DNA of 64,000 bases, taken from Thermoflexus hugenholtzii. GTDB lineage: Bacteria > Chloroflexota > Anaerolineae > Thermoflexales > Thermoflexaceae. The number at the start of each line of letters is the position of its first letter. Position 1 is the first letter of the stretch. The notes below the pieces were generated by a model. The model was not told where the DNA came from and made no database searches. It saw only the letters and a program-made list of their open reading frames with translations. The stretch covers positions 2,733,785 to 2,797,784 of the forward strand of contig NZ_CP076326.1 in assembly GCF_018771565.1 (NCBI RefSeq), read 5' to 3'. The position numbers and the translations under genes are program-made. Shown here piece by piece: positions 22,655 to 62,653 of the stretch.

Positions 22655-23116
22655 TCATGCGGATGGAGATTCCTCAGACCTCCGGGAGGCGTCCGTCCGC
22701 TGGCGGGCCAGCAGGCGGCTCTTTTTGATCCACGGATATCGATCGATGACATGGGCGCGCATGTAGCGCCCCTTGGATTCCGCCCGCAGGAGGCCTGCGA
22801 AGACCTCCGGCGGCACCCCGTAATAGAGATAAACCCCCTTGTTGAAAGCGACCTCCAGGATCCTCTCCTCGGGGTGATAACGCACCGCGCTGATCATGCT
22901 GGAGTCCACACCGATCCATCCCGAAGGGAGGCGCTCCGCTTCGAGGGGAAGCCCCAGGGCCTCCAGCAACGGCCGCCACTTCCGCAACGGCGCGATGGAG
23001 AGCGTCCCCTCTCCCCCGCGCACCTCCAGGCGGACGGAGAGATCCGGCGATTCCCTCCACCGCAGACGGAGCGCGTCAGTCTCGGGATCGTATTCCACCC
23101 ATTGCCCGGTCTCCAT
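22655..23116 (-). CDS. KTSC domain-containing protein
   Basis: 'VDSSMISAVRYHPEERILEVAFNKGVYLYYGVPPEVFAGLLRAESKGRYM' matches the KTSC (lysine tRNA synthetase C-terminal-like) domain pattern. Confidence 0.65.
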   Translation of the reverse strand: METGQWVEYDPETDALRLRWRESPDLSVRLEVRGGEGTLSIAPLRKWRPLLEALGLPLEAERLPSGWIGVDSSMISAVRYHPEERILEVAFNKGVYLYYGVPPEVFAGLLRAESKGRYMRAHVIDRYPWIKKSRLLARQRTDASRRSEESPSA

Positions 23117-23134: not shown

Positions 23135-24289
23135 TCACACGCCGCGCATCCCCCGGCGGACCCGTTCCCGAACCTCTTCGTAGAACTCCACCACACGGCG
23201 GGCAATCTCGTCCCAATCATACTGGCGGGCGCGCTGGCGGCCGGCGGCGCTCATCCGCGCCCGCAGGGCGGGATCGCGCAGCAGCCGCAACAGGGCCTCC
23301 GCCAGGGCCTCCGGGTCCTCCGGGGGAACCAGGAAACCCTGCACGCCGTCCTCCACCACCTCGTTATAGCCCGGGATATCGGTGGCGACCACCGGCACCC
23401 CCGCCGCCATGGCCTCCAGGAGCACGATGCCGAAGCTCTCCATCCCAATGGAAGGGGCGCAGAACACGGTGGCCGCCCGATAGTAACGGGGCAGCTCGGC
23501 GTCCGGCACGTAGCCGATGAAACGAACCTGGCGCAGGCGCAGCGCCCAGGCCTGGGCCACATAAGGCGCCTTCTCCGCCTTTCCGAAGGCCCCCACCACC
23601 AGCAGCCGGGCCTCTGGACATGCGGCCTGCACCCGGGCGAAGGCCTCCAGGAGATAGCGCAATCCCTTGCGCCGCTCCAGACGCCCCACGAAGAGGACGG
23701 TGGGACGGCCGTCGTCGAAGGGCTCAGGGGGACAAAGGGCGGGATCGGCGAAGCGGGCATAGTCGATGCCGTTGGGGATGACGACGTAATCCGCCGGGAA
23801 GTAGCGCATGTGATACTGCCGCGCTGCCTCCGAGACCGCGATGCAGCCGTCCAGCCGCTTGAAGAACCGCCGCAGCAGCGGCTTGCCGTAGTAATACGTC
23901 CGGCTCACCTCCCGATAGGCGTGGAACGTGCCCACGGCGATGGCCTGAGGGACCAGATCCCGGTGCCGCAGGACCGCGAGGGGGAGGGCGGGGGTGAGGG
24001 GTTCGTGCAGGTGCAACACATCGTAGGCGCCGGACTGCAGGATACCTTTGATCCGGCGGTAGAGGCGCGGCGAGAGGGTGATCCGGGCGATGGAGCCGGC
24101 GAAGGGGAAAGCGATCACCGAGGCCGAGGCGTTGATGAACCCGTCCCCGCTGGACCGTCCGTCGGAGGCCGGCGCGATGATGTGGGCCTCATGGCCCAGG
24201 CGCTGCAGGCTCCGGGCCAGATGGGCGATGTGGTTGTTCACCCCGCCGGGCACGGCGAAATCGTAAGGGGACACCAGGGCGATGCGCAT
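23135..24289 (-). CDS. GT4-family glycosyltransferase, PimA-like (phosphatidylinositol mannosyltransferase-like)
   Basis: 'MRIALVSPYDFAVPGGVNNHIAHLARSL..GHE' at the N-terminus. The C-terminal part reads 'FCAPSIGMESFGIVLLEAMAAGVPVVATDIPGYNEVV' (the EX7E region). Confidence 0.7.
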   Translation of the reverse strand: MRIALVSPYDFAVPGGVNNHIAHLARSLQRLGHEAHIIAPASDGRSSGDGFINASASVIAFPFAGSIARITLSPRLYRRIKGILQSGAYDVLHLHEPLTPALPLAVLRHRDLVPQAIAVGTFHAYREVSRTYYYGKPLLRRFFKRLDGCIAVSEAARQYHMRYFPADYVVIPNGIDYARFADPALCPPEPFDDGRPTVLFVGRLERRKGLRYLLEAFARVQAACPEARLLVVGAFGKAEKAPYVAQAWALRLRQVRFIGYVPDAELPRYYRAATVFCAPSIGMESFGIVLLEAMAAGVPVVATDIPGYNEVVEDGVQGFLVPPEDPEALAEALLRLLRDPALRARMSAAGRQRARQYDWDEIARRVVEFYEEVRERVRRGMRGV

Positions 24290-24335
24290 GGACGGCGGCC
24301 TCCAGCCCCGCCGGTCGGACGGCAGTCCCATCCCC

Positions 24336-25235
24336 TCAAGCGCGCCGTTCCCCCGGCCGGATCTGCCAGATGGGAGTGGTCAACACCCACTGCTCGGGAG
24401 CCTCCCGCAGGACCCCGGCGAAGATCTCCAGGACCCGGGCGATGAGTTCGTCCCGAGCCTCCGTGGACCTCCCGGATGGCCAGAGGGGAGGCCAGACCCG
24501 CAAAGAGACCCCCTGGGTCTCCCGCCGGGCGAAGGCGGGCAGCACCGGAGCGCCCTGGCGGACCGCCAGCTCGGCGTAGCCGTCCGGCAGCCATGCCTCC
24601 GCCCCAAAGAAAGCATACACCCGACCGCTCCCGGTGGTGTCGCGGTCCAGGGCCAGGGCGACGATCCCTCCCTGTCGGAGGGTGCGGAAGACCTCCCGGA
24701 GGGCCCCATCCGCCGGGATCAGCCGGAGGCCGTGGGCGCCCCGCAGCCGGCAGAGATAGCGGAACATCGCGGGCGGGCGCACCGCCTCCGCGACCGCGAG
24801 GGCCGGGAAGCCGCTGGCCCCCAGCAGCTGCAGCCCCCACTCCACGCAGCCGTAGTGCGCGCTCACCACGATCCCGCCCTGGCCCGCCCGCACCGTTTCC
24901 TCGAGATGCGCCCATCCCTCCACCCGGATGGAGGAGAACCAGGCCCTCGGCGGACGGTGGGGGGCCTGGAAGAGGTCCACGTAATTTTGCCAGAGGAGCC
25001 GGAAGGCCCGGCGGGCCGTCCGATGCACCGCCGGGTCCTCCGGCGAGACCCCCAGCACGTGAGCCAGGTTATCCCGCAGGCCGGCCGTGGCGGGCAGGAT
25101 GGGATAGCACACGTCGGCCAGGCGTGCGGCCAGCATATAGGCGAAGCGGGGCGGCAGCCGCCCGGCCGCCGCCCCGAGGCCCCGAAAGAGGAGATACACC
25201 GCCCAGGCCAGCGCCTCAGACCCCGCGTCCCGCAA
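24336..25235 (-). CDS. Lysophospholipid/lipid A-type acyltransferase (LpxL/HtrB/PatA family)
   Basis: ~300 aa with '[14 protein letters not shown]' (the HX4D-type region of the lauroyl/myristoyl acyltransferase family). It sits between the ino1-like and pimA-like genes. Confidence 0.6.
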
Positions 25236-26298
25236 TGAAATCCTCCACCATCTGCCGGGCGATGTGGTCAGGGAACTGGCGAGGAGGCGATTTCATGAAA
25301 TACGCCGAGGGGCCGATCAGCGCCCCCTTGAGCCCGCGGTCGAGGGCGATCTTGGCGCAGCGCACCGCATCGATCACCACCCCCGCCGAGTTCGGGCTGT
25401 CCCACACCTCCAGCTTCGCCTCGAGGGAAATGGGCGCCCCGCCGAAGGTGGTCCCCTCAATCCGGATGTAGCACCACTTGCGGTCCTGCAGCCAGGGGAC
25501 GTAGTCGCTGGGGCCGATGTGGATGTTCTCCGGCGGGAGCTCGTAGGGGATCAAGCTGGTCACCGCGCTGGTCTTGGAGATCTTCTTGGACTCCAGCCGC
25601 TCCCGCTCCAGCATGTTCAGGAAGTCCGTGTTGCCTCCGAAGTTCAGCTGATAGGTCCGCTCCACCCGCACGCCTCGTTCGATGAAGAGCTGGGTGAGCA
25701 CGCGGTGGAGGATCGTCGCCCCCACCTGGGACTTCACGTCATCGCCGATCACCGGGAGGCCGGCCTCCTCAAACCGTTGCTGCCAGTAGGGCTCCCGGGC
25801 GATGAACACCGGGATCCCGTTCACGAAGGCGCAGCCCGCGTCCAGCACCTGCTCCACATACCATTTGGTGGCCTCCTCGCTGCCCACGGGCAGGAAGTTC
25901 ACCACCACGTCGGTGCCCGTGTCCTTGAGGATCTTGACGATGTTGTCCGTCGGGCCGGGGGCCTTGCGGATGATCCCGGAGAGATAGCGGCCGATCCCAT
26001 CGTGGGTCATGCCCCGATAGACCTTCACCCCCAGCCGGGGCACGTCGGCGAACTTCAGGGTGTTGTTGGGCGGGGTGAAGATGGCCTCCGAAAGATCTTT
26101 CCCCACCTTGTTGACGTCGATGTCGAAGGCCGCCGTGAACTCGATGTCTCCCACATGGTAAGGGCCCAGCCGCACGTGCATCAGGCCGGGGACGAAGGCG
26201 TCGTCGGGGGCGTTCCGGTAATACCACACGCCCTGGACCAGGGCGGAGGCGCAGTTCCCGACGCCGATGATGGCCACGCGCACCTTTCGATCCGCCAC
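25216..26298 (-). CDS. ino1: myo-Inositol-3-phosphate synthase
   Basis: '[23 protein letters not shown]' (Rossmann N-terminus), '[12 protein letters not shown]', 'GIPVFIA' and '[17 protein letters not shown]' are typical of bacterial and archaeal MIPS. Confidence 0.85.
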
Positions 26299-26450: not shown

Positions 26451-26939
26451 ATGCGGTTGCCTCGCGCATGGTGGGTGGTCGCCAGCGCCGCGGCCAGCGA
26501 CTGGCACTGGCGGGACTTCTTCCGGGATCCGGCCGAAGAAGGGCGCAACTGGGGCGGGCGGGAGTGGATCCGTTCGCCTCTCTCATGGGCCCGCATCCGC
26601 GAGATGCGTCGAGGGGATATCGTGGTGGCGTATCAGGCGGGAGAGGGAGTGATCGGGCTGGCCCGCCTGGCCTCGGACGGCTATCCGGAGGTCCCCGGCG
26701 GGCCTTACGACACCTTCGACCTGGCCCCCGCTCCCGTCCTCTTGCTCCACGAGCCCATTCCCCTCGCCCTGATCCGCCAGCTCCCCGGGGCCCGATCTCA
26801 CTTCGAGTTCCTCCGCCTCCATCACGGCACCGTCTTCCGGATCACACCCGAGGGGCTGGAGGCTCTCCTCCGGCTGATCCGGGCCCTGAACCCCGAGCAG
26901 GCTGCGGATCTGGATGCCTTCCTGCGAGACTATAATTGA
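26451..26939 (+). CDS. EVE / PUA-like domain protein
   Basis: ATG 26451 follows GGGAGG. 'WWVVAS...W...WGGREWIRSPLSWARIREMRRGDIVVAYQAGEGVIGLARLASDGYPE' follows the EVE-domain pattern: W-rich N-terminus, 'm+.GD.v..Y', then 'givGla.v'. Confidence 0.55.
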   Translation: MRLPRAWWVVASAAASDWHWRDFFRDPAEEGRNWGGREWIRSPLSWARIREMRRGDIVVAYQAGEGVIGLARLASDGYPEVPGGPYDTFDLAPAPVLLLHEPIPLALIRQLPGARSHFEFLRLHHGTVFRITPEGLEALLRLIRALNPEQAADLDAFLRDYN

Positions 26940-27060
26940 GGTGCTCCACGGATCATTCGTGTGAGCCTTCGTAAGGAAGGAAGAGCGCAACGGTTCGAAA
27001 GGGGCGTCGGAGAGGGAGGGATGTGCGGCGGCCTCCAGTCCGGGAAGGGGGAGATCTGGC

Positions 27061-28245
27061 ATGCTGGATTGGCGGCAGGTGAGCGTGTATGTGCAGGAGC
27101 TGGCGGATTACGCGGGAGAGCGCCTGCGCGCGCATCCCCCCACCCTGCGCTATGCGCTGAGCCTGCTCCACCGGTTCTCCGAGGATCTGGACCGGTTGGG
27201 GCGGCTGGCCCGGGAGGCCCAGCGATTCGGCTGGCGGGGCGCCTTCCCGGGAGGCGAGCCCCTCGCGGCCCGCTTCCCGCTGCCCCCGGAGCAGCCCCAG
27301 GCCCTGGTGATCGCCGCCGACGGCTCCCAGATTTACCCGGATCGCCACGGGACGGTGCCTTATTTCGTCCTCAACATCGGCCTGATCGAGATGCGCGCCG
27401 GCTCCGGGGCTCCCCCGCAGACCCGGCATCACCTGGTGTTCTGGTATCGGGAGGAGGAGCTCTTCACCGACGACGGGGAGATGCGGGCGCTTAACGACCT
27501 GGAGGCGGAACGGGACATCCAGGAGCTGGAGCAGCTGGCGGCGGCGATGGCCGCCCGGGCGGCGGATCCCTTCGGGCCGCCGGTCGGCCTGGCGGACGGC
27601 CTGTTGCTCCCCTGGGCCCTGGCCCGCGGTGAACCCTTCGCCGGGCTCCCCCCCGAGCGCTATCGGGAGCTCCTCGGCCGGGTCCTCCGCGCCCTGGAGA
27701 CCGCGAAAGGGACGGGCGGCGCCATCGCCGGATATGTGGACCGGCCCACCGGCCATGCGGTGCTGCGGCTGCTGGCCCTGGGTCTCCTGGAGGAGCTCTC
27801 GCGGGAGAAGATCGCCGATTACCCCTTCGGGCAGCTGCGGGATCGCACCCTCTTCGCCGAGCTGTTGGAGCCCGGGGAGCGCTCCGCCCTCTTCGCCCTG
27901 AGCTGGCCCATTAACGAGCGCCTGGGCCAGGAGGGGCACCGCCTGCTCTTCTTCTACGTGAACGTGGGGACGCCCGGTCGGCCCCACTTGGCCCGGGTGG
28001 AGATCCCGGAATGGGTGGCTCAGGATCGGGAGCGGCTGGACCGGTTGCATCGGACGATCTGGGACCAGTGTCGGATCCTGGCGGAGGCGCCCTATCCCTA
28101 TCTGCTGACCCGGGCTCACGAGCTGGCTCGCATCCGCTCGGAGGAGCGGGCGCGCCTGGAGCAGATGATCCAGGAGGCGCTTCTGCGCCGCGGCCTCCGA
28201 CCGATGATCTCCGCAAAAGCCCAGCAGAAAGAATGGCTACGGTGA
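27061..28245 (+). CDS. nurA: NurA-domain 5'-3' nuclease
   Basis: 'ALVIAADGSQIYPDRH' (catalytic Asp motif of NurA), later 'AIAGYVDRPTG', and C-terminal 'PYPYLLTRAHELARI'. It lies beside a HerA-type ATPase. Confidence 0.7.
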   Translation: MLDWRQVSVYVQELADYAGERLRAHPPTLRYALSLLHRFSEDLDRLGRLAREAQRFGWRGAFPGGEPLAARFPLPPEQPQALVIAADGSQIYPDRHGTVPYFVLNIGLIEMRAGSGAPPQTRHHLVFWYREEELFTDDGEMRALNDLEAERDIQELEQLAAAMAARAADPFGPPVGLADGLLLPWALARGEPFAGLPPERYRELLGRVLRALETAKGTGGAIAGYVDRPTGHAVLRLLALGLLEELSREKIADYPFGQLRDRTLFAELLEPGERSALFALSWPINERLGQEGHRLLFFYVNVGTPGRPHLARVEIPEWVAQDRERLDRLHRTIWDQCRILAEAPYPYLLTRAHELARIRSEERARLEQMIQEALLRRGLRPMISAKAQQKEWLR

Positions 28246-28257
28246 GGAGGATCGGAG

Positions 28258-28896
28258 ATGGCCAGCCCGGGAGCGCATCCGAGGAGCTCATCCGGCCCCG
28301 CTTTCATCGGTCGCGTCATCGAGGCCAGCGCCCGGGCCTTCCGCGTCGGCTGCCGGCTGACCGCCGATGACATCCCCGCCTTCGGCTCCTTCGTCCAGAC
28401 CGCCCGGGGGGAGACCACCATCATCGGCGTGATCTACGACCTGGTCCTGCAAGGCGATGAGCTGACCCGCATGGTGGCCCTGCAGGAGATCCCGCCCCAG
28501 GAGATCCAACAGGACATGATCGAAAACCGCAACATCCCGGTCCAGATCGGGGTGCTCATCCTGGGCTATCTGCGGGAGCGAGGGACCGCCTATGGGATCC
28601 CACCCCAGCCTCCCGCCTTGCTGGAGCCGGTTTACGCATGTCTTCCATCCCAGATCCATCGCTTCACCGAGCGGCCGGATTTCCTGCGCACTCTGGTGGA
28701 GGCCCGGGAGGCCTCCGACGACGTGGTGGCGGCGGTGATCCGCACGGCCGCCGAGGCACGTTCCGGGCCCGCCCGGCGGGACTTCGTGATCCAGGCCGGC
28801 CAGGAGCTGGTGCGGTTGCTGGCCGACGAGCCGATCCGTCTGGCCCAGCTCCTGCGCCGCATCCGCGCCGCGGTGGAAATCGGAGCGCCTTCATGA
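28258..28896 (+). CDS. Stand-alone HAS-barrel-like protein of unknown function, between nurA and herA
   Basis: 'FIGRVIEASARAFRVGC...FGSFVQTARGETTIIGVIYDLVL...NIPVQIGVLILGYL' resembles the N-terminal HAS barrel of HerA. A helical tail follows, and there is no P-loop. Confidence 0.45.
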   Translation: MASPGAHPRSSSGPAFIGRVIEASARAFRVGCRLTADDIPAFGSFVQTARGETTIIGVIYDLVLQGDELTRMVALQEIPPQEIQQDMIENRNIPVQIGVLILGYLRERGTAYGIPPQPPALLEPVYACLPSQIHRFTERPDFLRTLVEAREASDDVVAAVIRTAAEARSGPARRDFVIQAGQELVRLLADEPIRLAQLLRRIRAAVEIGAPS

Positions 28897-29059
28897 GCAG
28901 CCCACGAATCATTACGCGGAGCACCCGGACAAGCGCCCACGGTCTTCTCCGCTCCGGGAGGGGTTGACACCTGCGGGCGTCTTCGTCTCTAAAGGGGAGG
29001 ATCTCGGGGCACCCCAGCCGTCGAAGACCGGCTGGGGACCCCGCAAGGAGGATCGGCGT

Positions 29060-30766
29060 ATGGCCTGGCCACGCGAAGGGATGGAGCGTTCCCCGAATCG
29101 GCCCTCCGAGAAGGAGGCGCGCCGGCTGGGACGGGTGATCGGGGGCTCTCTCTCCGAGGGGCTGGTGGTGAAACTCGACCCCCGCATCGCCATCGAAGGG
29201 CTGGCGGTGGGACGCTACGTGGTGATCCACGGATACCGGCGGCGTTTCTTCGGGATGATCACCGACATCCGGCTGGACAGCGCCAACCCGGATCTCGCCC
29301 GCATGCCCCCGGATCCCGATGATCCGCTGATCCGGGATATGGTCTCCGGGATCGGGGTGTTCGGGCAGATCCACGTGCAGCCCATGTTGCTTCTGGAGGA
29401 GGGGGATCCCCTCCCCCGGCCGGTGAAGACCGTCCCCGCTCACTTCGCCCCGGTCTATGAGGCCACCGAGGAGGAGGTGCACGCCATCTTTCGACCCCGT
29501 CGGAAGGAAGGGGAGGACCGCTATTTCGTGATCGGGGAGCCCCTGGACATGCCGGGGGTGCGCATCCCCCTGAACCTGGATCGTCTCGTCGAGCGCTCCA
29601 GCGGCGTCTTCGGGAAGAGCGGCACCGGAAAGACTTTCCTGGCCCGGCTGCTCCTGGCCGGGGTGATCTACCACAACGCCTCGGTGGCCTTGATCTTCGA
29701 TATGCACAACGAATACGGATGGAGCGCGCCGGGGGAGGGCGGGCAGGTGCCGGGCCTGAAGCAACTGCCCGGATGCTTCTCCCGCGTGGTCATCGCCACC
29801 CTCGATGAGGAGTCCTCCCGGCGCCGGAACAGCCGCTACGACCTGGTGATCCGCATCGGCTACGATCAAATCGAGCCGGAGGATGTGGAGCTGTTGCGCG
29901 GCGTCATCGGCCTCTCCGAGGTCCAGATCGGCGCCCTGTATATGCTGCGGCGGCGGCTGGGCCGGGACTGGCTGCGCATCCTCCTGGAGGAAGAAGAGGC
30001 GCCGCCCGTGGAGGACGAGGAGGGAGGCGGAAGCCCTCTGGCCGAGCTGGTGGAGCGGGACCTGATCACCAGCAGCACCCTGGGGGCTCTCCAGCGCAAG
30101 CTGGGCCTCTTCCACCGGTTTCGGTTTCTGATCCCACGGGCTCCGGAGGACGCGGCCCAGGCGGTTCTCTCCCGATTGCTCCAGGGCCAGAGCGTGGTCC
30201 TGGAGTTCGGCCGCTACGGCAACGACATGGCGGCCTACGTGCTGGTGGCCAACTACCTCACCCGCCGCATCCACGCCGAATACGTCCGGCGGAAGGAGAT
30301 GGCCCTGGGCGACCCGGGCCAGGAGCCCCCGCACCTGGTGATCGTCGTCGAAGAGGCCCATAAGTTCCTCCAGCCCGGCATCGCCGAGCACACCGTGTTC
30401 GGGACCATCGCCCGGGAGCTGCGCAAATACAACGTGACGCTGCTGATCGTCGACCAGCGGCCCAGCCAGATCGACGGCGAGGTCCTCTCCCAGATCGGCA
30501 CGCGGGTGCTGTGTCTGCTGGACCACGAGGAGGATGTGCGGGCGGCCCTCTCCGGGATCTCGGGGGCCTCCCGGCTGCGGGAGGTGCTGGCCCGCCTGGA
30601 GACCAAGCAGCAGGCCCTGTTGCTGGGCCACGCCGTGCCGATGCCGGTGGTGGTGCGGACCCGCGACTACGATTCCTCCTTTGTGGAGGATCTGGCGCGG
30701 AGGGAGGGCGACAGGCCGCCGGATGTGGTCGAGAAATACTTCAGGGCGATGCGGGATGAAGATTGA
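29060..30766 (+). CDS. herA: HerA-family hexameric ATPase/helicase (DUF87-type)
   Basis: ATG 29060 follows AAGGAGGA. The HAS barrel reads 'RLGRVIGGSLSEGLVVKLD...VGRYVVIHG'. Walker A is 'GVFGKSGTGKTFLARLLLAGV' and Walker B is 'HLVIVVEEAHKFL'. 'LLIVDQRPSQI' is also present. Confidence 0.85.
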   Translation: MAWPREGMERSPNRPSEKEARRLGRVIGGSLSEGLVVKLDPRIAIEGLAVGRYVVIHGYRRRFFGMITDIRLDSANPDLARMPPDPDDPLIRDMVSGIGVFGQIHVQPMLLLEEGDPLPRPVKTVPAHFAPVYEATEEEVHAIFRPRRKEGEDRYFVIGEPLDMPGVRIPLNLDRLVERSSGVFGKSGTGKTFLARLLLAGVIYHNASVALIFDMHNEYGWSAPGEGGQVPGLKQLPGCFSRVVIATLDEESSRRRNSRYDLVIRIGYDQIEPEDVELLRGVIGLSEVQIGALYMLRRRLGRDWLRILLEEEEAPPVEDEEGGGSPLAELVERDLITSSTLGALQRKLGLFHRFRFLIPRAPEDAAQAVLSRLLQGQSVVLEFGRYGNDMAAYVLVANYLTRRIHAEYVRRKEMALGDPGQEPPHLVIVVEEAHKFLQPGIAEHTVFGTIARELRKYNVTLLIVDQRPSQIDGEVLSQIGTRVLCLLDHEEDVRAALSGISGASRLREVLARLETKQQALLLGHAVPMPVVVRTRDYDSSFVEDLARREGDRPPDVVEKYFRAMRDED

Positions 30767-30859
30767 TCCCGCTGACCGAGACGGAACCCTCACCTTCCAG
30801 GGGACGTCTCTTGGATGCCCGGCATCAGGCGGGTGAATCTTTCCCCTAAGAGGCTTCGA

Positions 30860-31312
30860 ATGAAGATAGGGCAGAGGCGCTGGATGCTGCTCGCAGGGGT
30901 GCTGCTGGGGGTGATGGGCGCGTGCGCGCCGGCCCGCCCAGGGATTTCTCCGCTGGAGGGCTTCTCGCCGCTTCCTGCGCCGGCCGAACCCACGCTCGCT
31001 CCGGGCGCCCCGGGAGGATCCATCGTGGAGCCGCAGCTGGAGGCGCTGGTGGAGCAGGCTCGACAGGATCTGGCGGCTCGCCTGAGCCTGGATCCTGAGG
31101 AAATCCGGGTGATCGAGGCGCGGGCGGTGACCTGGCCCGATAGCAGCCTGGGATGCCCCGAGCCCGGGCGGATGTATCTGCAGGTCCTCACGCCCGGCTA
31201 TCGGATCGTCCTGGAAGCGCAGGGACGGCGATACGCCTATCACGCCGGTCGCGGAGGCTCACCCTTCCTGTGCCCACCCGACCGGGCCCGGGAGCCCCTC
31301 GAGGGCCCATGA
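30860..31312 (+). CDS. Small lipoprotein, unknown function
   Basis: 'MKIGQRRWMLLAGVLLGVMGAC' is a lipobox. The mature part has the conserved-looking segment 'VTWPDSSLGCPEPGRMYLQVLTPGYRI'. Confidence 0.6.
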   Translation: MKIGQRRWMLLAGVLLGVMGACAPARPGISPLEGFSPLPAPAEPTLAPGAPGGSIVEPQLEALVEQARQDLAARLSLDPEEIRVIEARAVTWPDSSLGCPEPGRMYLQVLTPGYRIVLEAQGRRYAYHAGRGGSPFLCPPDRAREPLEGP

Positions 31313-36912: not shown

Positions 36913-38235
36913 TTATTTCACCCGCCTGGAGTGAAACTCATGACGGGCTGCTTCCTGCTTCATCGACCCATGGCTCGTAGACCGGGCCTTGCCCGTTCCG
37001 CCGCCAGAGGGATCTCCACAGGCGTCACTTCCCGGGGAACTCCCGGTAGGGCCTTTCAGGGCGGCCAACCCAAAACGACGCAGGTTGAGGGCCGCGTTGA
37101 GATCCCGATCCACCTTCAGCCCGCACGCCCCACAGCGAAACACCCGCTGGGACAGCGGCAACGTGGGAGCAACCCAGCCGCAGCGCGAGCACCGCTTCGT
37201 GGACGGGAAATCCCGCGGCGCAATGAGGAGCACGGCCCCATACCAGGCGCACTTATACTCCAGCATCCGCCGGAAGGCCCCCCACCCCACATCCAGAATG
37301 GCCCGGGAAAGGCTCCCGTTCCGCGCCAGGCCCCGCACGTTCAGGTCCTCCACCACCAGAACCGGCTTGGCTTTCGCCAGCTCCGTGGTGACCTTGTGCA
37401 GGAAGTCCCGGCGGATGTTCCGAACCCGGCGGTGTAGCCGGGCCAGACGCAGGGCCGCCTTCTCATAGTTGCGAGAGAAAACCGTCCGCCTCCGCTCCTC
37501 CCCCGTCTCCGGGTCTTGTTCCACCACCGTCCGCTTCTGCTTGCGGGAGAGCTGCCTCGAACGCCGCTTCAAAAGCCGCAAGGCCCTCTCCAGAGGCTTC
37601 GGGGCCTCCATCCGCGCTCCATCCGACAGCACGGCAAAAGCCTCCAGCCCCACGTCGATGCCCACCACATCCTCCGGTCCCCGGACCTCCCGGGGCTCGG
37701 GATCCGGGCGCTCCACCTCACAGGTCAGGCTCACAAACCAGCGATCCGCCTCTCGGGAGATGGTCGCCGAGAGGATGCGGGCCTTCCCGGACTGAAGGAG
37801 CTCCAGGAGCTGGTCCGTCCGCTCCTTGGTGCGGACCTTGCCGATGCGAGGGAGCTGCACGTGCCGAGGAGTGACCCGGATGGAGCCGGTCAGCCGGGCC
37901 TTGTTGTCCGCCAGAGCCTTCTTGCGCTTGAAGCGGGGGAAGCCGGCCCGGCCCTCCCGCCAGTTGCGAACGGCCCGCTCCAGATCCCGGAAGGCCTCCT
38001 GAGGAGCGCACTTGGACACCTCCACCCACCAGGGGGCGTGCTTCCGCTTCCACTCGTTCCAGTCCTTGTGGAGGTCCACCGCCGAGGGGATCTGCTCGCC
38101 GCGCGCTTGGGCTTCCAAACAGCGGGTCAGGCCCCAGTTGTAGGCGAAGCGGGCGGCGCCCACGTGCTTCGCCAGGGCGATCCGGGCCTCCCGGTTGGGG
38201 TCCAGCTCGAAGCGGAACGCCTGCTTTACTTGCAT
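36913..38235 (-). CDS. tnpB: TnpB (OrfB) RuvC-like RNA-guided endonuclease family protein
   Basis: 'MQVKQAFRFELDPN...ARFAYNWGL' at the N-terminus. The RuvC motifs include 'VGIDVGL' and 'VVVEDLNVRGL'. The zinc ribbon reads 'STKRCSRCGW...FRCGACGLKVDRDLNAALNL'. Confidence 0.9.
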   Translation of the reverse strand: MQVKQAFRFELDPNREARIALAKHVGAARFAYNWGLTRCLEAQARGEQIPSAVDLHKDWNEWKRKHAPWWVEVSKCAPQEAFRDLERAVRNWREGRAGFPRFKRKKALADNKARLTGSIRVTPRHVQLPRIGKVRTKERTDQLLELLQSGKARILSATISREADRWFVSLTCEVERPDPEPREVRGPEDVVGIDVGLEAFAVLSDGARMEAPKPLERALRLLKRRSRQLSRKQKRTVVEQDPETGEERRRTVFSRNYEKAALRLARLHRRVRNIRRDFLHKVTTELAKAKPVLVVEDLNVRGLARNGSLSRAILDVGWGAFRRMLEYKCAWYGAVLLIAPRDFPSTKRCSRCGWVAPTLPLSQRVFRCGACGLKVDRDLNAALNLRRFGLAALKGPTGSSPGSDACGDPSGGGTGKARSTSHGSMKQEAARHEFHSRRVK

Positions 38236-38786
38236 CCAGTTGCCTCCCATGCTGGCTGGGCTCGTCTCCTGGCCGACCGACGCCCATCCAGACGCCCGCA
38301 GGCCGAGGTGAGGATCTCCAGGACGTCTTGCGCCAGGTCGTCTGTCACTTCCCCCTCCTCTATGACAACAACATGTCGCCCCGAAGCGGCCATAGCCGCT
38401 TCCAGCAAGTCAAATCCGAACCGGGCCAGCCGATCGCGATGCTCCACGACAATCCGAACCACCTGGGGATCCCGCAGGATCCGTAGAAGTTTCTTTCGTT
38501 TTCCGTTCAGCCCGAAGCCGATTTCGGTCGCCGCTTTAACCTCTGTCCAACCTTGTTCTTGGGCAAAGGCCTGAAGGCGTTGAACTTGCCGTTCCAGATC
38601 CTCTTTCTGGTCAGCGGAGGACACTCGGGCATAAAGCACGGTGATACCTTCTGGGTGAGGCGCTTCTACCCAGATGGTCCCAGCAGGCAATGGGCGGGCA
38701 GGGACAGGAAGCTTTCCTGCCCGAAACCACCGCCAGGCGGTGATATCGCTTATCCCCTGCTGACGAGCCCAATCCGAGAGTTTCAT
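38226..38786 (-). CDS. tnpA: IS607-family serine recombinase TnpA (MerR-like HTH plus resolvase catalytic domain)
   Basis: 'MKLSDWARQQGISDITAWRWFRAGKLP' is the HTH. 'VLYARVSSADQKEDLERQ' holds the catalytic Ser. 'IVVEHRDRLARFGF' is also present. Confidence 0.9.
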   Translation of the reverse strand: MKLSDWARQQGISDITAWRWFRAGKLPVPARPLPAGTIWVEAPHPEGITVLYARVSSADQKEDLERQVQRLQAFAQEQGWTEVKAATEIGFGLNGKRKKLLRILRDPQVVRIVVEHRDRLARFGFDLLEAAMAASGRHVVVIEEGEVTDDLAQDVLEILTSACGRLDGRRSARRRAQPAWEATGCK

Positions 38787-59169: not shown

Positions 59170-59248
59170 TGGTGGCCCCGGCGGGATTTGAACCCGCGAT
59201 CTCTGCCTTGAGAGGGCAGCGTCCTAAACCGGGCTAGACGACGGGGCC
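59170..59248 (-). tRNA. tRNA-Glu (anticodon CUC), CCA encoded
   Basis: The reverse complement reads GGCCCCGUCGUCUAGCCCGGUUUAGGACGCUGCCCUCUCAAGGCAGAGAUCGCGGGUUCAAAUCCCGCCGGGGCCACCA. The acceptor stem pairs GGCCCCG with CGGGGCC. The anticodon stem pairs CUGCC with GGCAG, with loop CU-CUC-AA. The T arm is GCGGG-UUCAAAU-CCCGC. Confidence 0.92.
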
Positions 59249-59268
59249 ACGGTCCTTGCATTTCAATC

Positions 59269-60234
59269 TTACCGTGGGAGCCTTCCTCCGTCAAGACGGA
59301 GCGACCCGGAGGCGCGGAGGCTCGTGCCCCCGCACGCCGGATGGAGACGGGTCACCGCATCGATGCGGCGGCCGTCCACCGTGATGAACTCGAAGGTGAT
59401 CCGGCACGCGTTCGCCTCCACCCGCATCGCCCCATGCTGGGCCCAATAGCGAACCCGGCTGCCGGGGACCGGGGCGCGGAAAGGGTAACGAGCGGGATGG
59501 CCGCCCAGCCCGTTGACAAAGTAGAGGACCCCGTCCCGTTCGATCCGTTCGTAGACGTGGTCGTGCCCGGCGAGGACGGCGGCGACCCCCCAGGCGGCGA
59601 AGGGCCACTGGAGGGCGGGGGTGGAGCCGTGCAGGCCCGAGGAGTAAGGGGGGTGATGCATCACCACGAGGCGCCACGGCGCATCGGAGGCCTTCAATCG
59701 TTCCGCCAGCCAGCGGGCCTGGCGGGAGTCCGCGGTGATCCCGTCGGGCTCGTGAGGATCGCTGTCCAGGAGGAACAGGTGCACCGGACCCCAGCGGACG
59801 TCGTAATAACGCTCGTTGCCGGGCAGGTCGAAATATTCGAGATAGGGCCGCGCGCCGGCGGCCGCCCAGTCGTGGTTGCCCAGGACGGGGAAGAAGCGGT
59901 TGCGGTCGGCGCCCGGGCCGTAGCGGCCCCGGTAAGGGGCGATGAACGTGTGGTAATACTGCCCGATGTTCGCATCGATGGTCCGAGCTTCCCCGCGCGG
60001 GTAGTTGTTGTCCCCGGTGGTGACGATGAAATCGGGATTCCAGCCGCGGACCAGCCGGGCCACGGCCTCGGCGGCCGGACCGGCCTGCCCGTAGTCGCCG
60101 ATCACGGCGAAGCGCACGGATGGGGTCGGTGTCGGGGCTTGGGGCGCTCGATCCCCCGCCGAACCACGGGGATCGGCGAAGGCCAGCGCCCCGAGCAGGA
60201 GCAGCCCGAACCCTATTCGCTTCCACACGCGCAT
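59269..60234 (-). CDS. Secreted metallophosphoesterase (calcineurin-like)
   Basis: Signal peptide, then 'FAVIGDYG', 'VTTGDNNY', 'VLGNHDW', 'VVMHHPPYSS' and 'VLAGHDHVYER', the canonical metallophosphoesterase motif series. Confidence 0.85.
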   Translation of the reverse strand: MRVWKRIGFGLLLLGALAFADPRGSAGDRAPQAPTPTPSVRFAVIGDYGQAGPAAEAVARLVRGWNPDFIVTTGDNNYPRGEARTIDANIGQYYHTFIAPYRGRYGPGADRNRFFPVLGNHDWAAAGARPYLEYFDLPGNERYYDVRWGPVHLFLLDSDPHEPDGITADSRQARWLAERLKASDAPWRLVVMHHPPYSSGLHGSTPALQWPFAAWGVAAVLAGHDHVYERIERDGVLYFVNGLGGHPARYPFRAPVPGSRVRYWAQHGAMRVEANACRITFEFITVDGRRIDAVTRLHPACGGTSLRASGSLRLDGGRLPR

Positions 60235-60303
60235 AGATCCTGTCTCTCTAGATCCATCGGCCGAGGGTTGCGCTTTTTTTCGTAACAGACCGTTAAGGGT
60301 CCA

Positions 60304-61227
60304 TTAGTTACGAGTTGTCTCCATGCTTTTATAGAGAAGGCATTTCACCAACGAATCTCGGAGAGTTTGGCTAAAAGGAGCTGTTACATGATCCGCTCCT
60401 GGTATGAGGATGAACGTGCAGGGCACATTGGCGCAGAGGTTCTCTGCGGATCCCCTTAAGGGATCCCGTTCGCCAACTATGACGCAAATCGGAACCCTCA
60501 AATGGGCCAAATCTTCTCGAGATACAGCAATTTCGGGCAAAGCTTCCACCATGGCAGCTAGTGCCAGAGGATCGTTGAAATAGCGTGTCATCAGCATAAC
60601 GAATGTGGTATGGAGAACCCCAGGCTTACGTCGAGCCTCGGGCCAAGCAGCGCTGAGAGGTCCAATCGCCCGGCCTGCCCGGAGCTGCTGAGCGATAGCT
60701 TCCAGGGACTGTTGAAAATCCCTTTCTTCAGGATTGGCCCATCCTGCGCCCATTATGCTAAGGGTACGCACCCGCTGGGGATACAACACGGCAAATTTCA
60801 GGACGAGGAAGCCTCCGAGCGAATAACCGACCAGGTGAGCGCTTTGGATCCCCAATTCATCCATCAACGCGGCGATGTCTTTCACCATCTCCAAACCATA
60901 GGCCTCTGGGCTATGGGGCTTATCGCTCAAGCCATGCCCGCGCAAGTCCATGGCGATCACTCGAAAATGAGCTTTAAGTTCATTGTGAATTCCAGGCAAC
61001 CGCCAGTTTAAATCAGCGTTGGTAGCGAATCCATGGACTAAGATAACGGGCTCCCCTGCTCCCTCATCCGTATAATGAAGGTGGATGTTGTTGACTTCCA
61101 CATATTGGCCGACTACACGGTGGGTTAGCTTGAAGTAAAAGTAGAGGGAGCTTATTGCGACCGCTAGAATCAAAGTTAAGAACAGCAAGACTCCCGAAGT
61201 CCAGCGCTTCCGGATTTTGCTCTTCAT
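60304..61227 (-). CDS. Membrane-anchored alpha/beta hydrolase (low-G+C gene)
   Basis: N-terminal TM segment 'GVLLFLTLILAVAISSLYFYF'. 'VILVHGF' is present, the nucleophile elbow reads 'LVGYSLGG', and the C-terminus has 'GADHV'. Composition is visibly more AT-rich than every neighbouring gene. Confidence 0.8.
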   Translation of the reverse strand: MKSKIRKRWTSGVLLFLTLILAVAISSLYFYFKLTHRVVGQYVEVNNIHLHYTDEGAGEPVILVHGFATNADLNWRLPGIHNELKAHFRVIAMDLRGHGLSDKPHSPEAYGLEMVKDIAALMDELGIQSAHLVGYSLGGFLVLKFAVLYPQRVRTLSIMGAGWANPEERDFQQSLEAIAQQLRAGRAIGPLSAAWPEARRKPGVLHTTFVMLMTRYFNDPLALAAMVEALPEIAVSREDLAHLRVPICVIVGERDPLRGSAENLCANVPCTFILIPGADHVTAPFSQTLRDSLVKCLLYKSMETTRN

Positions 61228-61390
61228 TTTCCTCGTTCCTCAACGAGACCTGCAGCCTCTGGTGGGATATATCTTCCCTGAGAGAAGATTTCAACGGAGG
61301 CCAGGACGCGCTATTGCTTTATGTGTCAGAGGGCGGTCTGCTAAGCACCCCTCGGGTGAGAAAGGTGAGCACAGCCCGGGAAAGCGGCTT

Positions 61391-62653
61391 TCACGGGCCC
61401 TCAATAAGCACCCGGTGAGGATCCACCCGGTTGTTCAGCGGGGCGATCTCCACGTCCTCGTGGATCAGGCCGGCCCAGAAATACAGGGGGTTGCGGGGTG
61501 GCACGTAGGTGATCCGGATGCAGCCGGTCACGATGGCCGTTCGGCCCGCCGGCAGATAGTAATACGGCCGGCCGTCGATGATCCGCACCTCGAGATCCTC
61601 CGGGCGGCCCACCGCCCAGCGGAAGGGGTAGTTGCGCAGGGAGGTGTCGAAGTCGATGCCCACCCGCCAGGCCCCGGATTCCTCGGCCCAGCCCTCCGGC
61701 CGCCCCGGCTGCGGCGTGTTGAAGGTCTGATCCAGATCATAACAGGTCCCGGGGGGCGGCCCGCTGGTCCGGATCGGAACCGCCCCGTAGTTATGCACCG
61801 TCAGCGTGAAATAGAGGAAGCCGCCGAGGTTGACCGGGATGTAATCCCCGGTCCCTGCGGAGATGTCCGAACGGAACTCCACCCGTCCGTTGAGGATCTC
61901 CGCCCGCGGCACTCCGCCCTCGCGGATGGTCAGGGTTCCGGTGACCACATCCCGAAGCCCCAGGGCGTCCTCCGCCACCGCGTAGACCGTGTAGGTTCCG
62001 TCGGGGGGCGGCTCCTGGCCTCGATCGACGCCGGCGTCGTAGTCGAAGATGTGGCATCCCTCCTCGCCGGGCTTGCGCAGCTGCACCTCCTTGCGGGGGA
62101 CCGGGTAACGGACGCCGTCGGCGCCCTCCAGGTAGACGAGGATCTGGGCCGGTCGGTTGATGCAAACGTTGATGGTCGCCCGGTCGCTCAACCCGTCCCG
62201 GTTGGGGGTGAACTCGGGGGGCGAGATGCTGAAGCCGGTGATGCGGAGAGCCTGAGGGTGCGATCCGCTCACGGTGAGGGTGCCGGTGATCTGCGCCGTC
62301 TCCGATCCGTCCCGGGCCTCCACCACCCAGGTGTAATGGCCGTCGGGGAGCAGCTGGTTCTCCACCACCCCGTTGAACAGGACCTCATATTCCCCCCGAG
62401 GCCGGGGTTGTTCCCGCCGGAAGTAGCGGGGGGTCCCGTCCGGGCCCACGAAATAGATCGAGACGATGGCGTTCCGACCCAGCGCGTAACGGATCGCCAC
62501 CACCTCGTTCCGGCCGTCCCCATCCGGAGTCAGGAGATCCGGCTGGATCGTGGCGGAGCGCAGCAACGGGGCCGGCCGGCATGCGGACAGGGCGAGCAAC
62601 AGCCCGATCAGACCGAACCATCGTCCGAAGCGCCGCATCTCAGGAACGCGCAT
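61391..62653 (-). CDS. Lipoprotein with repeated Ig-like (FlgD-Ig-like) segments, unknown function
   Basis: 'FGLIGLLLALSAC' is a lipobox. The pattern 'L(T/S)P(D/N)GDG.N(E/D)...I.Y.L' recurs ('LLTPDGDGRNEVVAIRYAL', 'FTPNRDGLSDRATINVCI'). Confidence 0.6.
   Translation of the reverse strand: MRVPEMRRFGRWFGLIGLLLALSACRPAPLLRSATIQPDLLTPDGDGRNEVVAIRYALGRNAIVSIYFVGPDGTPRYFRREQPRPRGEYEVLFNGVVENQLLPDGHYTWVVEARDGSETAQITGTLTVSGSHPQALRITGFSISPPEFTPNRDGLSDRATINVCINRPAQILVYLEGADGVRYPVPRKEVQLRKPGEEGCHIFDYDAGVDRGQEPPPDGTYTVYAVAEDALGLRDVVTGTLTIREGGVPRAEILNGRVEFRSDISAGTGDYIPVNLGGFLYFTLTVHNYGAVPIRTSGPPPGTCYDLDQTFNTPQPGRPEGWAEESGAWRVGIDFDTSLRNYPFRWAVGRPEDLEVRIIDGRPYYYLPAGRTAIVTGCIRITYVPPRNPLYFWAGLIHEDVEIAPLNNRVDPHRVLIEGP

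What the first reader, a model, noticed from the sequence alone, without database searches (positions are those of the whole stretch)
26451..30766. EVE-domain protein, NurA nuclease, HAS-barrel protein and HerA ATPase: a four-gene cassette resembling a modification-sensing nuclease/helicase system
**Seen in the sequence**
Four same-strand genes, separated by 121, 12 and 163 nt.
- An EVE/PUA-like domain protein.
- A NurA-domain protein, with 'AADGSQIYPDRH'.
- A 212-aa protein whose N-half looks like a HerA HAS barrel but has no P-loop.
- A HerA/DUF87 ATPase with intact Walker A and B motifs.

**Established knowledge**
- NurA-HerA act together in DNA-end resection in archaea, and are present in Deinococcus-Thermus.
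- HerA-family ATPases also pair with nuclease or NADase effectors (Sir2-HerA, DUF4297-HerA) in anti-phage defence.
- EVE and related PUA-like domains read modified bases and are recurrently attached to modification-dependent restriction modules.

**Inference**
Combining an EVE reader and an extra stand-alone HAS-barrel subunit with NurA-HerA is not a layout I recognise. It could be a defence or repair system triggered by modified or foreign DNA.
Basis: partly seen in the sequence, partly recalled or inferred. Interest (0 to 1): 0.75.

Follow-up and report, generated by a model that had tools for sequence, protein, structure and literature searches.

The report
NurA-HerA repair module with extra subunit
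The four genes are real, but the conserved unit is a DNA-end-processing NurA nuclease and HerA motor plus an undescribed small HerA-like barrel protein found throughout Chloroflexota, while the EVE "modified-base reader" gene is only a neighbour within one genus and nothing indicates phage defence.

Summary
Four + strand genes in a Thermoflexus hugenholtzii-like genome encode an EVE-fold protein, a NurA nuclease, a 212-aa P-loop-less HAS-barrel protein ("MID") and a HerA ATPase, with gaps of 121, 12 and 163 nt.

- **MID is a real conserved partner.** It follows NurA in 29 of 29 genome loci that carry NurA and in 65 of 67 informative metagenome loci. Its family has about 1,100 clusters at 50% identity and no Pfam or NCBIfam model. 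Its predicted structure matches the N-terminal HAS-barrel part of solved HerA proteins. It is fused in frame to HerA in one genome.
- **EVE is not a conserved partner.** It is absent from every NurA-MID locus outside Thermoflexus. Within the genus it is intact, truncated, missing, or placed beside a DNA glycosylase gene instead.
- **There is no defence signal.** The flanks are housekeeping genes, only generic HerA models hit in PADLOC, and there are no plasmid, phage or viral copies. Relatives carry Mre11 and Rad50 genes downstream of HerA, as in archaeal end-resection operons.

Best reading: a three-component variant of the NurA-HerA DNA-end resection machine, with MID as an accessory subunit. 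This is a new variant of a known kind, of moderate interest.

The parts
27061..28245 (+). NurA-family nuclease (394 aa); core component
   Evidence: Pfam NurA, E=7e-27. Candidate catalytic acidic residues D87 (within DGS), E155, D179 and D261 are invariant in 12 diverse relatives. No sequence-level PDB match.
28258..28896 (+). MID: 212-aa stand-alone protein with a HAS barrel (about residues 16-127) and a C-terminal helical domain (about 130-208), no P-loop; conserved third component
   Evidence: AF2 model with pLDDT 82. Foldseek top 50 hits are all HerA-family chains (HerA or HerA-like TdpA). 13 of 51 family members hit Pfam HAS-barrel. 1127 clusters at 50% identity in the profile search. Follows NurA in 29/29 and 65/67 loci. 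Fused to HerA in L056.
29060..30766 (+). HerA-family hexameric ATPase/translocase (568 aa) with its own N-terminal HAS barrel; core component
   Evidence: Pfam DUF87 at E=1.7e-24 and HAS-barrel at 26.7 bits. Walker A and B conserved. Median 55% identity across Anaerolineae, in at least 579 species genomes.
26451..26939 (+). EVE (PUA-like) domain protein (162 aa); a neighbour restricted to the genus Thermoflexus, not part of the conserved module
   Evidence: Fold confirmed. Adjacent to NurA only in Thermoflexus lineages. Truncated in L092/L093. Paired with a Pur_DNA_glyco gene in L089-L091 and L099.
29013..29038 (+). Perfect 9-bp hairpin (CCCCAGCCG...CGGCTGGGG) in the 163-nt MID-HerA spacer; function unknown
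   Evidence: Sequence and fold. The spacer as a whole does not fold better than shuffles (z=-1.3). Relatives such as L092 have only a 15-nt gap here.

Best explanation
The conserved unit is NurA-MID-HerA, a three-component version of the NurA-HerA DNA-end resection machine that is widespread in Chloroflexota (class Anaerolineae and relatives). By analogy with solved archaeal and Deinococcus complexes, HerA forms a hexameric ATP-driven dsDNA translocase, and a NurA dimer docks on its HAS-barrel face and degrades the DNA fed to it. MID is a P-loop-less paralogue of the HerA N-terminal HAS barrel with an added helical domain. I infer that it is an accessory subunit, made together with NurA, that mediates or regulates NurA docking on the HerA HAS-barrel collar. 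It could do this as an extra ring or as a NurA-bound adaptor. The EVE gene is a separate small protein that probably binds modified or damaged bases. It lay upstream of NurA in an ancestral Thermoflexus repair-gene neighbourhood (3-methyladenine glycosylase, EVE, NurA, MID, HerA), and the system does not need it. Shown here: domain identities, folds, gene linkage and distribution. Inferred: complex formation, MID's role, and DNA-end resection as the cellular function.
For: MID follows NurA on the same strand, at a median spacing of 57 nt, in 29/29 genome loci with NurA and 65/67 informative metagenome loci. NurA/MID and MID/HerA start-stop overlaps occur in L003 and L181. MID is fused in frame to HerA in L056 and stays with HerA when NurA is displaced in L181. 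The MID model matches the HAS-barrel end of HerA in the SIR2-HerA, DUF4297-HerA, T. kodakarensis HerA-NurA and Sulfolobus HerA structures. In D. radiodurans the HAS-barrel face of HerA is the NurA docking site, at a 6:2 ratio (PMC9960219). Mre11-like genes lie downstream of HerA in 11/80 and 5/75 loci, and Rad50 with a zinc hook follows in L059 and L020. NurA acidic residues and HerA Walker motifs are conserved. HerA keeps about 55% identity across the class. Flanks are housekeeping genes in the window and relatives. Sub-lineages keep the same HerA flanks, for example deacetylase-HerA-PLD-like in 7 loci. EVE is absent outside Thermoflexus and decays within it.
Against: There is no direct evidence that MID binds NurA or HerA. 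Only one fusion was found in about 170 loci, in a MAG, so an assembly indel is possible. NurA occurs without MID in L145 and L153, and a divergent MID occurs without NurA or HerA within 10 kb in L180. 24 HerA loci have no NurA-MID within at least 3 kb upstream (up to the 6-kb flank held), and I could not check whether it lies elsewhere in those genomes. This window has no Mre11 or Rad50 gene. Profile comparison of MID against the clade's own HerA is not significant. This HerA is no closer to archaeal repair HerA than to the HerA of SIR2-HerA defence systems. In Thermoflexus the EVE-NurA junction survived two different upstream rearrangements, so a lineage-specific functional link is not excluded.
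Confidence: 0.65

Rival explanations
1. One reading: the four genes form one system that senses modified DNA and acts in defence or restriction. EVE would recognise modified or foreign DNA and direct NurA-HerA to destroy it.
For: The EVE fold is real and matches modified-DNA readers and the EVE-containing restriction enzyme VcaM4I. EVE lies 43-121 nt upstream of NurA on the same strand in several Thermoflexus lineages with three different upstream flanks. HerA pairs with effectors in known defence systems, and the best PDB sequence match of this HerA is a SIR2-HerA HerA. TIR-domain genes sit between MID and HerA in Aggregatilineales.
Against: EVE is absent from 0/29 and 0/60 NurA-MID loci outside Thermoflexus. 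It is truncated in L092/L093 while NurA-MID-HerA stays intact, absent in L009, and kept with a glycosylase but without NurA in L089. EVE homologues elsewhere have unrelated neighbours. PADLOC gives no hit for EVE, NurA or MID, and NCBIfam HerA_antiphage scores 76 against a cut-off of 800. There are no defence genes in the flanks and no plasmid, phage or viral copies. Relatives show Mre11-Rad50 linkage.
Confidence: 0.07
2. MID is not a bridge to HerA. It would be a NurA-specific partner, such as a chaperone or an inhibitory decoy that mimics the HerA HAS surface and keeps NurA inactive until HerA displaces it.
For: When the operon is split, MID stays with NurA far more often than with HerA. There are 13 genome loci and 11 metagenome loci where HerA is 0.3-5.5 kb away or absent, against 2 cases (L056, L181) where MID stays with HerA. 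NurA and MID diverge at the same rate (35% identity) while HerA is much more conserved (55%). The HAS barrel is the known NurA-binding surface (PMC9960219).
Against: The in-frame MID-HerA fusion and the MID/HerA start-stop overlaps suggest MID also assembles with HerA. No biochemical data exist either way.
Confidence: 0.2
3. The module serves another DNA-translocation process, such as DNA export or import or chromosome processing, as proposed for other HerA/FtsK-family ATPases (Thermus HepA/TdtA, archaeal CedD), rather than double-strand-break resection.
For: NCBIfam gives a weak CedD match (56 bits) alongside the HerA repair models. 24 HerA loci have no NurA nearby. The cited D. radiodurans study tests the role of bacterial nurA-herA by damage-survival assays on an operon deletion strain, and I did not examine how strong that phenotype is (PMC9960219).
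Against: All such NCBIfam scores lie far below their cut-offs. NurA nuclease with conserved acidic residues is the constant partner. The Mre11-Rad50 linkage is the hallmark of the archaeal resection operon. No membrane, pilus or conjugation genes recur next to the module.
Confidence: 0.08

Closest known systems
Archaeal HerA-NurA end-resection complex (Sulfolobus 4D2I/2YGK, Pyrococcus, Thermococcus kodakarensis 9X1L), usually encoded with Mre11-Rad50
   Same: NurA-domain nuclease plus a HerA ATPase bearing a HAS barrel, encoded side by side. Mre11 and Rad50 (with zinc hook) genes lie downstream of HerA in a subset of the Chloroflexota relatives. The HerA profile matches 4d2i at E=4e-21 and 9x1l at E=1e-18.
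   Different: The archaeal system, as described in the papers found here, has two components at a 6:2 ratio. Here a third conserved gene (MID) lies between nurA and herA. NurA is too divergent to hit any solved NurA by sequence. This window has no Mre11 or Rad50.
Deinococcus radiodurans NurA-HerA (7WRW/7WRX; PMC9960219)
   Same: A bacterial NurA-HerA operon in which NurA docks on the HAS-barrel face of a stable HerA hexamer.
   Different: That paper deletes and complements nurA and herA together as an operon and describes no third component. drHerA is not detected even by the Chloroflexota HerA profile at E<=1e-3, so this is a separate bacterial clade.
HerA-based anti-phage systems (SIR2-HerA/Nezha, DUF4297-HerA, TdpAB)
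   Same: HerA ATPase with an N-terminal HAS barrel that binds an effector. The best PDB sequence match of this HerA is 8wiv (SIR2-HerA) at E=1.4e-25, and PADLOC HerA models hit at up to E=5.6e-32.
   Different: There is no SIR2, DUF4297 or TdpB partner. NCBIfam anti-phage HerA equivalogs score 76 and 62 bits against cut-offs of 800 and 850. The genes sit in a housekeeping chromosomal context, and the distribution is broad and looks vertical.
EVE/PUA-like modified-base readers (Rpa0253 2GBS, THYN1 5J3E, VcaM4I 6YEX)
   Same: The 162-aa protein has the EVE fold (TMq 0.65-0.68) and conserved Trp-rich motifs, including WW and WHW.
   Different: It is a stand-alone single-domain protein, not fused to a nuclease, and its link to NurA is confined to one genus. 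In two lineages its neighbour is a Pur_DNA_glyco (3-methyladenine glycosylase) gene.

Membership tests
NurA-HerA DNA-end resection system | NurA-domain nuclease with conserved acidic catalytic residues | tested here: met
   PF09376 at E=7e-27. D87, E155, D179 and D261 are invariant.
NurA-HerA DNA-end resection system | HerA ATPase with an N-terminal HAS barrel and a RecA-like core with Walker A and B | tested here: met
   DUF87 at E=1.7e-24 and HAS-barrel at 26.7 bits, above the cut-off of 25.2. Walker A and B conserved in 85 sequences.
NurA-HerA DNA-end resection system | nurA and herA encoded together on the same strand | tested here: met
   True in the window, in 29 of 57 informative HerA-anchored loci (plus 4 more with MID-HerA where NurA lies beyond the held stretch), and in 41 of 45 informative NurA-anchored loci.
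NurA-HerA DNA-end resection system | Genomic linkage to Mre11-Rad50 (archaeal hallmark) | tested here: inconclusive
   Absent from this window. Present downstream of HerA in 11/80 and 5/75 related loci, with Rad50 confirmed in L059 and L020.
NurA-HerA DNA-end resection system | Physical HerA6:NurA2 complex with ATP-dependent nuclease activity | not testable with these tools
   Needs biochemistry or multimer modelling.
HerA-based anti-phage defence (SIR2-HerA, DUF4297-HerA) | Adjacent SIR2 or DUF4297 effector | tested here: not met
   No such domains among the four genes or their flanks.
HerA-based anti-phage defence (SIR2-HerA, DUF4297-HerA) | HerA passes the NCBIfam anti-phage HerA equivalog cut-off | tested here: not met
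   NF042943 scores 76 against 800, and NF042944 scores 62 against 850.
HerA-based anti-phage defence (SIR2-HerA, DUF4297-HerA) | Location in defence islands or mobile elements | tested here: not met
   PADLOC finds nothing in 10 flanking genes except TnpB. No plasmid, phage or IMG/VR copies. Flanks in relatives are housekeeping genes.
EVE-dependent modification-sensing restriction systems | EVE domain present | tested here: met
   Pfam score is 21.7, just below the cut-off of 23, but the fold match to solved EVE structures is clear.
EVE-dependent modification-sensing restriction systems | EVE fused to, or conserved in an operon with, the nuclease module across lineages | tested here: not met
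   0/29 and 0/60 loci outside Thermoflexus. Truncated, absent or relocated within Thermoflexus.
HAS-barrel domain (PF09378), for MID | Sequence match above the Pfam gathering score | tested here: inconclusive
   The window protein scores 16.2 against 25.2. 13 of 51 family members match at E<=0.01, best 2e-9.
HAS-barrel domain (PF09378), for MID | Beta-barrel fold superposable on the HerA N-terminal domain | tested here: met
   The AF2 model has 7 strands between residues 16 and 127. Foldseek top 50 hits are all HerA-family chains, E=5e-6 to 2e-4.

The most novel reading that the evidence does not exclude
MID is an obligate, stoichiometric third subunit. In this reading a stand-alone HAS-barrel ring or adaptor is inserted between the NurA dimer and the HerA hexamer, giving the main NurA-HerA machine of a whole bacterial phylum-level lineage an architecture different from the 6:2 complex solved in archaea and Deinococcus. 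In Thermoflexus, the EVE protein might additionally couple recognition of alkylated or modified bases to this machine.
Probability: 0.4. Interest if true: 0.6.

Novelty: new variant of a known kind. Interest (0 to 1): 0.45.

Why it matters
The HerA-NurA structures and papers retrieved here (archaeal and Deinococcus) all describe a two-protein machine. A third, uncharacterised and unannotated subunit is conserved in hundreds of Chloroflexota species, has about 1,100 sequence clusters and has no family model. If it is a true subunit, the bacterial versions are more varied than assumed. It also gives a concrete target (a P-loop-less HAS barrel) for asking how nuclease docking on HerA rings is controlled, a question shared with HerA-based defence systems. 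The result also warns against reading an EVE gene next to a nuclease-helicase pair as a modification-sensing defence system without checking conservation.

Tried and rejected
- **Locus searches seeded with MID** failed because the MID alignments have no stretch conserved enough. I anchored on HerA and NurA instead.
- **Sequence-level links of MID to known proteins** gave nothing. The PDB profile search was empty, hhalign against the clade's HerA gave probability 1.5%, and NCBIfam and PADLOC had no hit. Only structure and family-level Pfam hits identify the barrel.
- **NurA against PDB sequences** gave no hit.
- **The promoter and terminator scan** of 26.1-31.5 kb was uninformative, with 0 promoters and 1 terminator-like site, below the shuffle expectation.
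- **The P0064 'NurA-MID fusion'** looks like a frameshifted gene call, so I did not use it.
- **The idea that genes inserted between MID and HerA form a conserved fourth component** was rejected. They are heterogeneous: TIR, AP endonuclease 2, nucleotidyltransferase, GNAT, GT87, subtilase.
- **Literature searches** for an EVE-HerA link, a stand-alone HAS-barrel partner, or Chloroflexota NurA-HerA found nothing relevant.
- **Plasmid, phage and IMG/VR searches** were negative.


Full report
**1. What is in the window**

The region carries four + strand ORFs at exactly the coordinates given: 26451-26939, 27061-28245, 28258-28896 and 29060-30766. The gaps are 121, 12 and 163 nt.

Proteins identical or 98-100% identical to these are annotated from Thermoflexus hugenholtzii and Thermoflexus sp.. 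The window is therefore a Thermoflexus (Chloroflexota) chromosome of about 68% G+C.

**2. Domain identities**

| Gene | Evidence |
|---|---|
| NurA | PF09376, E=7e-27. The DGS motif and three further acidic residues are invariant in diverse relatives. |
| HerA | DUF87 at E=1.7e-24, plus its own HAS barrel at 26.7 bits. Walker A and B are conserved in 85 relatives. |
| EVE | Pfam scores just under threshold (21.7 against 23). An AF2 model of pLDDT 89 superposes on solved EVE proteins, including THYN1 bound to 5mC DNA and the restriction enzyme VcaM4I, at TMq 0.65-0.68. |
| Middle protein (MID) | Only a 16-bit HAS-barrel hit. Its AF2 model (pLDDT 82) shows a beta-barrel at about residues 16-127 and a helical domain at 130-208. 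All top 50 Foldseek PDB hits are HerA-family chains (HerA or HerA-like TdpA). 13 of 51 family members hit Pfam HAS-barrel, best E=2e-9. It has no P-loop. |

**3. MID is a real, widespread and undescribed family**

- A word-indexed search found only 17 homologues.
- A full profile search found 1127 cluster representatives at 50% identity, 748 of them at E<=1e-10. Nearly all of the 150 best listed are stand-alone proteins of about 190-275 aa.
- No Pfam, NCBIfam or PADLOC model covers the family.
- I found no paper describing it.

**4. Gene linkage, anchored on HerA**

The best 80 loci are almost all labelled Chloroflexota MAGs, with three odd labels. I scanned these loci with my own HMMs.

| Category | Loci |
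|---|---|
| NurA, MID and HerA in that order on one strand | 29 |
| MID and HerA, with NurA beyond the edge of the stretch | 4 |
| HerA with at least 3 kb upstream and no NurA or MID | 24 |
| Too short to judge | 23 |

Whenever NurA is present, MID comes next.

**5. Gene linkage, anchored on NurA**

A metagenome scan found at least 534 relatives. Results for the 75 non-Thermoflexus loci kept:

- MID follows NurA in 65 of 67 informative loci. L145 and L153 are genuine exceptions.
- HerA follows MID within 300 nt in 34 loci and within 0.3-1.2 kb in 7.
- HerA is absent for at least 3 kb downstream in 4 loci.

**6. MID is also tied to HerA**

- In L056, MID is fused in frame to HerA while NurA sits two genes upstream. 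This is the only fusion in about 170 loci.
- In L181, MID overlaps the HerA start while NurA is 4.7 kb away on the other strand.
- One divergent MID (L180) has neither partner within 10 kb.
- Start-stop overlaps at both junctions occur in L003.
- Genes inserted between MID and HerA are unrelated to each other.
- NurA and MID diverge equally fast (35% median identity to the window). HerA is far more conserved at 55%.

**7. The EVE gene is not part of the conserved unit**

EVE is absent from every non-Thermoflexus NurA-MID locus: 0 of 29, and 0 of 60 with at least 700 nt of upstream sequence visible. EVE homologues of 44-55% identity elsewhere sit in unrelated neighbourhoods.

Within Thermoflexus the picture is one of drifting synteny.

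| Loci | State of EVE |
|---|---|
| Window, L096-98, L100/101 (ino1 flank) | Intact, upstream of NurA |
| L095 (AdoMet-synthase flank) | Intact, upstream of NurA |
| L099 (L104 also has EVE-NurA-MID-HerA; its upstream flank was not examined) | IGPS, Pur_DNA_glyco, EVE, NurA, MID, HerA |
| L092/L093 | Lost about 68 N-terminal residues |
| L009, L102 | No EVE at the locus |
| L089-91 | Pur_DNA_glyco and EVE, with no NurA after them |

Breakpoints fall both upstream of EVE and between EVE and NurA. This gives no sign of selection holding EVE to NurA. The recurrent glycosylase neighbour suggests that EVE belongs to a DNA-repair neighbourhood rather than to a restriction system.

**8. Repair or defence**

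- Mre11-like phosphoesterase genes lie downstream of HerA on the same strand in 11 of 80 and 5 of 75 loci, many with NurA-MID upstream.
- The next gene in L059 and L020 is Rad50, with AAA_23, a zinc hook and the SbcC Walker B motif. This is the gene set of the archaeal resection operon.
- In the window, the flanks are an inositol-phosphate synthase, acyltransferase and GT4 cluster, CorA, a threonine-aldolase-like lyase, a sugar ABC transporter with LacI, and MurJ.
- PADLOC finds nothing in ten neighbours except a TnpB.
- PADLOC hits for the four genes are generic HerA models only. NCBIfam HerA equivalogs, both repair and anti-phage, are all far below their cut-offs.
- No copy was found in plasmids, phages or IMG/VR.
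- Sub-lineages share the same HerA flanks, which fits vertical inheritance.
- One caveat: TIR-domain genes sit between MID and HerA in Aggregatilineales.

**9. Mechanism**

In solved complexes the NurA dimer docks on the HAS-barrel face of the HerA hexamer at a 6:2 ratio (PMC9960219).

MID is a P-loop-less copy of that docking domain, co-encoded with NurA and once fused to HerA. The most economical inference is that MID is an accessory subunit that mediates or gates NurA-HerA docking.

MID's nearly invariant residues include a PPxPP loop (P115, P118, P119). They also include D67, D86 and R91 in a low-confidence insertion within the barrel. These are candidate interface elements. This step is inference and was not tested.

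A decoy or inhibitor role is the main rival.

**10. Relation to known systems**

- The closest known systems are the archaeal HerA-NurA(-Mre11-Rad50) system and the two-gene D. radiodurans NurA-HerA.
- This clade is remote from both. drHerA is not detected by the clade profile, and no solved NurA is hit.
- It differs from both by the conserved third gene.
- It is not a member of the SIR2-HerA or DUF4297-HerA defence families, nor of the EVE-nuclease restriction systems (see the membership tests).

**11. Verdict**

This is a new variant of a known kind: a three-component NurA-MID-HerA module. Interest is moderate at 0.45. The EVE and defence angle, which motivated the original score, is not supported.

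Noticed in passing
L056:3108-6146 (MAG LacPavin_0920_SED5_MAG_65_9): MID and HerA are read as one in-frame polypeptide (…LLPQIGQT-MSGARPLGVVVGG…). NurA sits upstream, separated by SDR and HAD genes. This is either a natural fusion or a single-base assembly error.
   Followed up: partly
L089:4148-5281, L090, L091, L099:3518-4693: In other Thermoflexus lineages the EVE gene lies 10-50 nt downstream of a Pur_DNA_glyco (3-methyladenine DNA glycosylase) gene. This suggests a glycosylase-EVE pairing that may be of interest in its own right.
   Followed up: partly
L070:3470-5901, L084, L066, L055, L082 (Aggregatilineales MAGs): One or two TIR_2-domain genes, plus an AP_endonuc_2/xylose-isomerase-like gene, are inserted between NurA-MID and HerA or directly upstream of HerA.
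   Followed up: partly
L180:10001-10696 (4.86-Mb contig): A divergent MID homologue (231 aa, with a 27-residue insertion) sits directly after trpD-trpC, with no NurA or HerA within 10 kb. In Thermoflexus L099 an IGPS (trpC) gene also lies just upstream of the cluster.
   Followed up: no
window 36913-38250 (-): IS605-family TnpB (OrfB_IS605 and Cas12f1-like TNB domains; strong PADLOC Cas12f/Cas12u matches) lies about 6 kb downstream of HerA. No TnpA or omega RNA was looked for.
   Followed up: no
window 23135-26298 (-): Myo-inositol-1-phosphate synthase, a lipid A-type acyltransferase and a GT4 glycosyltransferase lie in a row. This layout resembles phosphatidylinositol-mannoside synthesis in a Chloroflexota genome. 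A KTSC-domain gene sits next door at 22655-23116.
   Followed up: no
window 29013-29038 (+): A perfect 9-bp GC-rich hairpin lies in the unusually long (163 nt) MID-HerA spacer. Related Thermoflexus loci have only about 15 nt here.
   Followed up: partly
window 30815-31312 (+): A 165-aa ORF 48 nt after HerA has a hydrophobic N-terminal stretch (…WMLLAGVLLGVMGAC…), read by eye as a possible lipoprotein signal. It has no Pfam hit. It is conserved (147-154 aa) at the same position in other Thermoflexus loci but not elsewhere.
   Followed up: partly
window 59173-62000: A tRNA gene (59173-59248, -) is followed by a drop in G+C to 0.59-0.63. The ORFs there are a Metallophos protein and an alpha/beta hydrolase, and no integrase was found.
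   Followed up: partly
L029, L045, L048, L049, L052, L060, L064: In one group of 'HerA-only' loci, HerA is flanked by a polysaccharide-deacetylase-like gene upstream and a gene downstream that I labelled PLD-like by eye (neither was checked against Pfam). This synteny is conserved and lacks NurA-MID.
   Followed up: no
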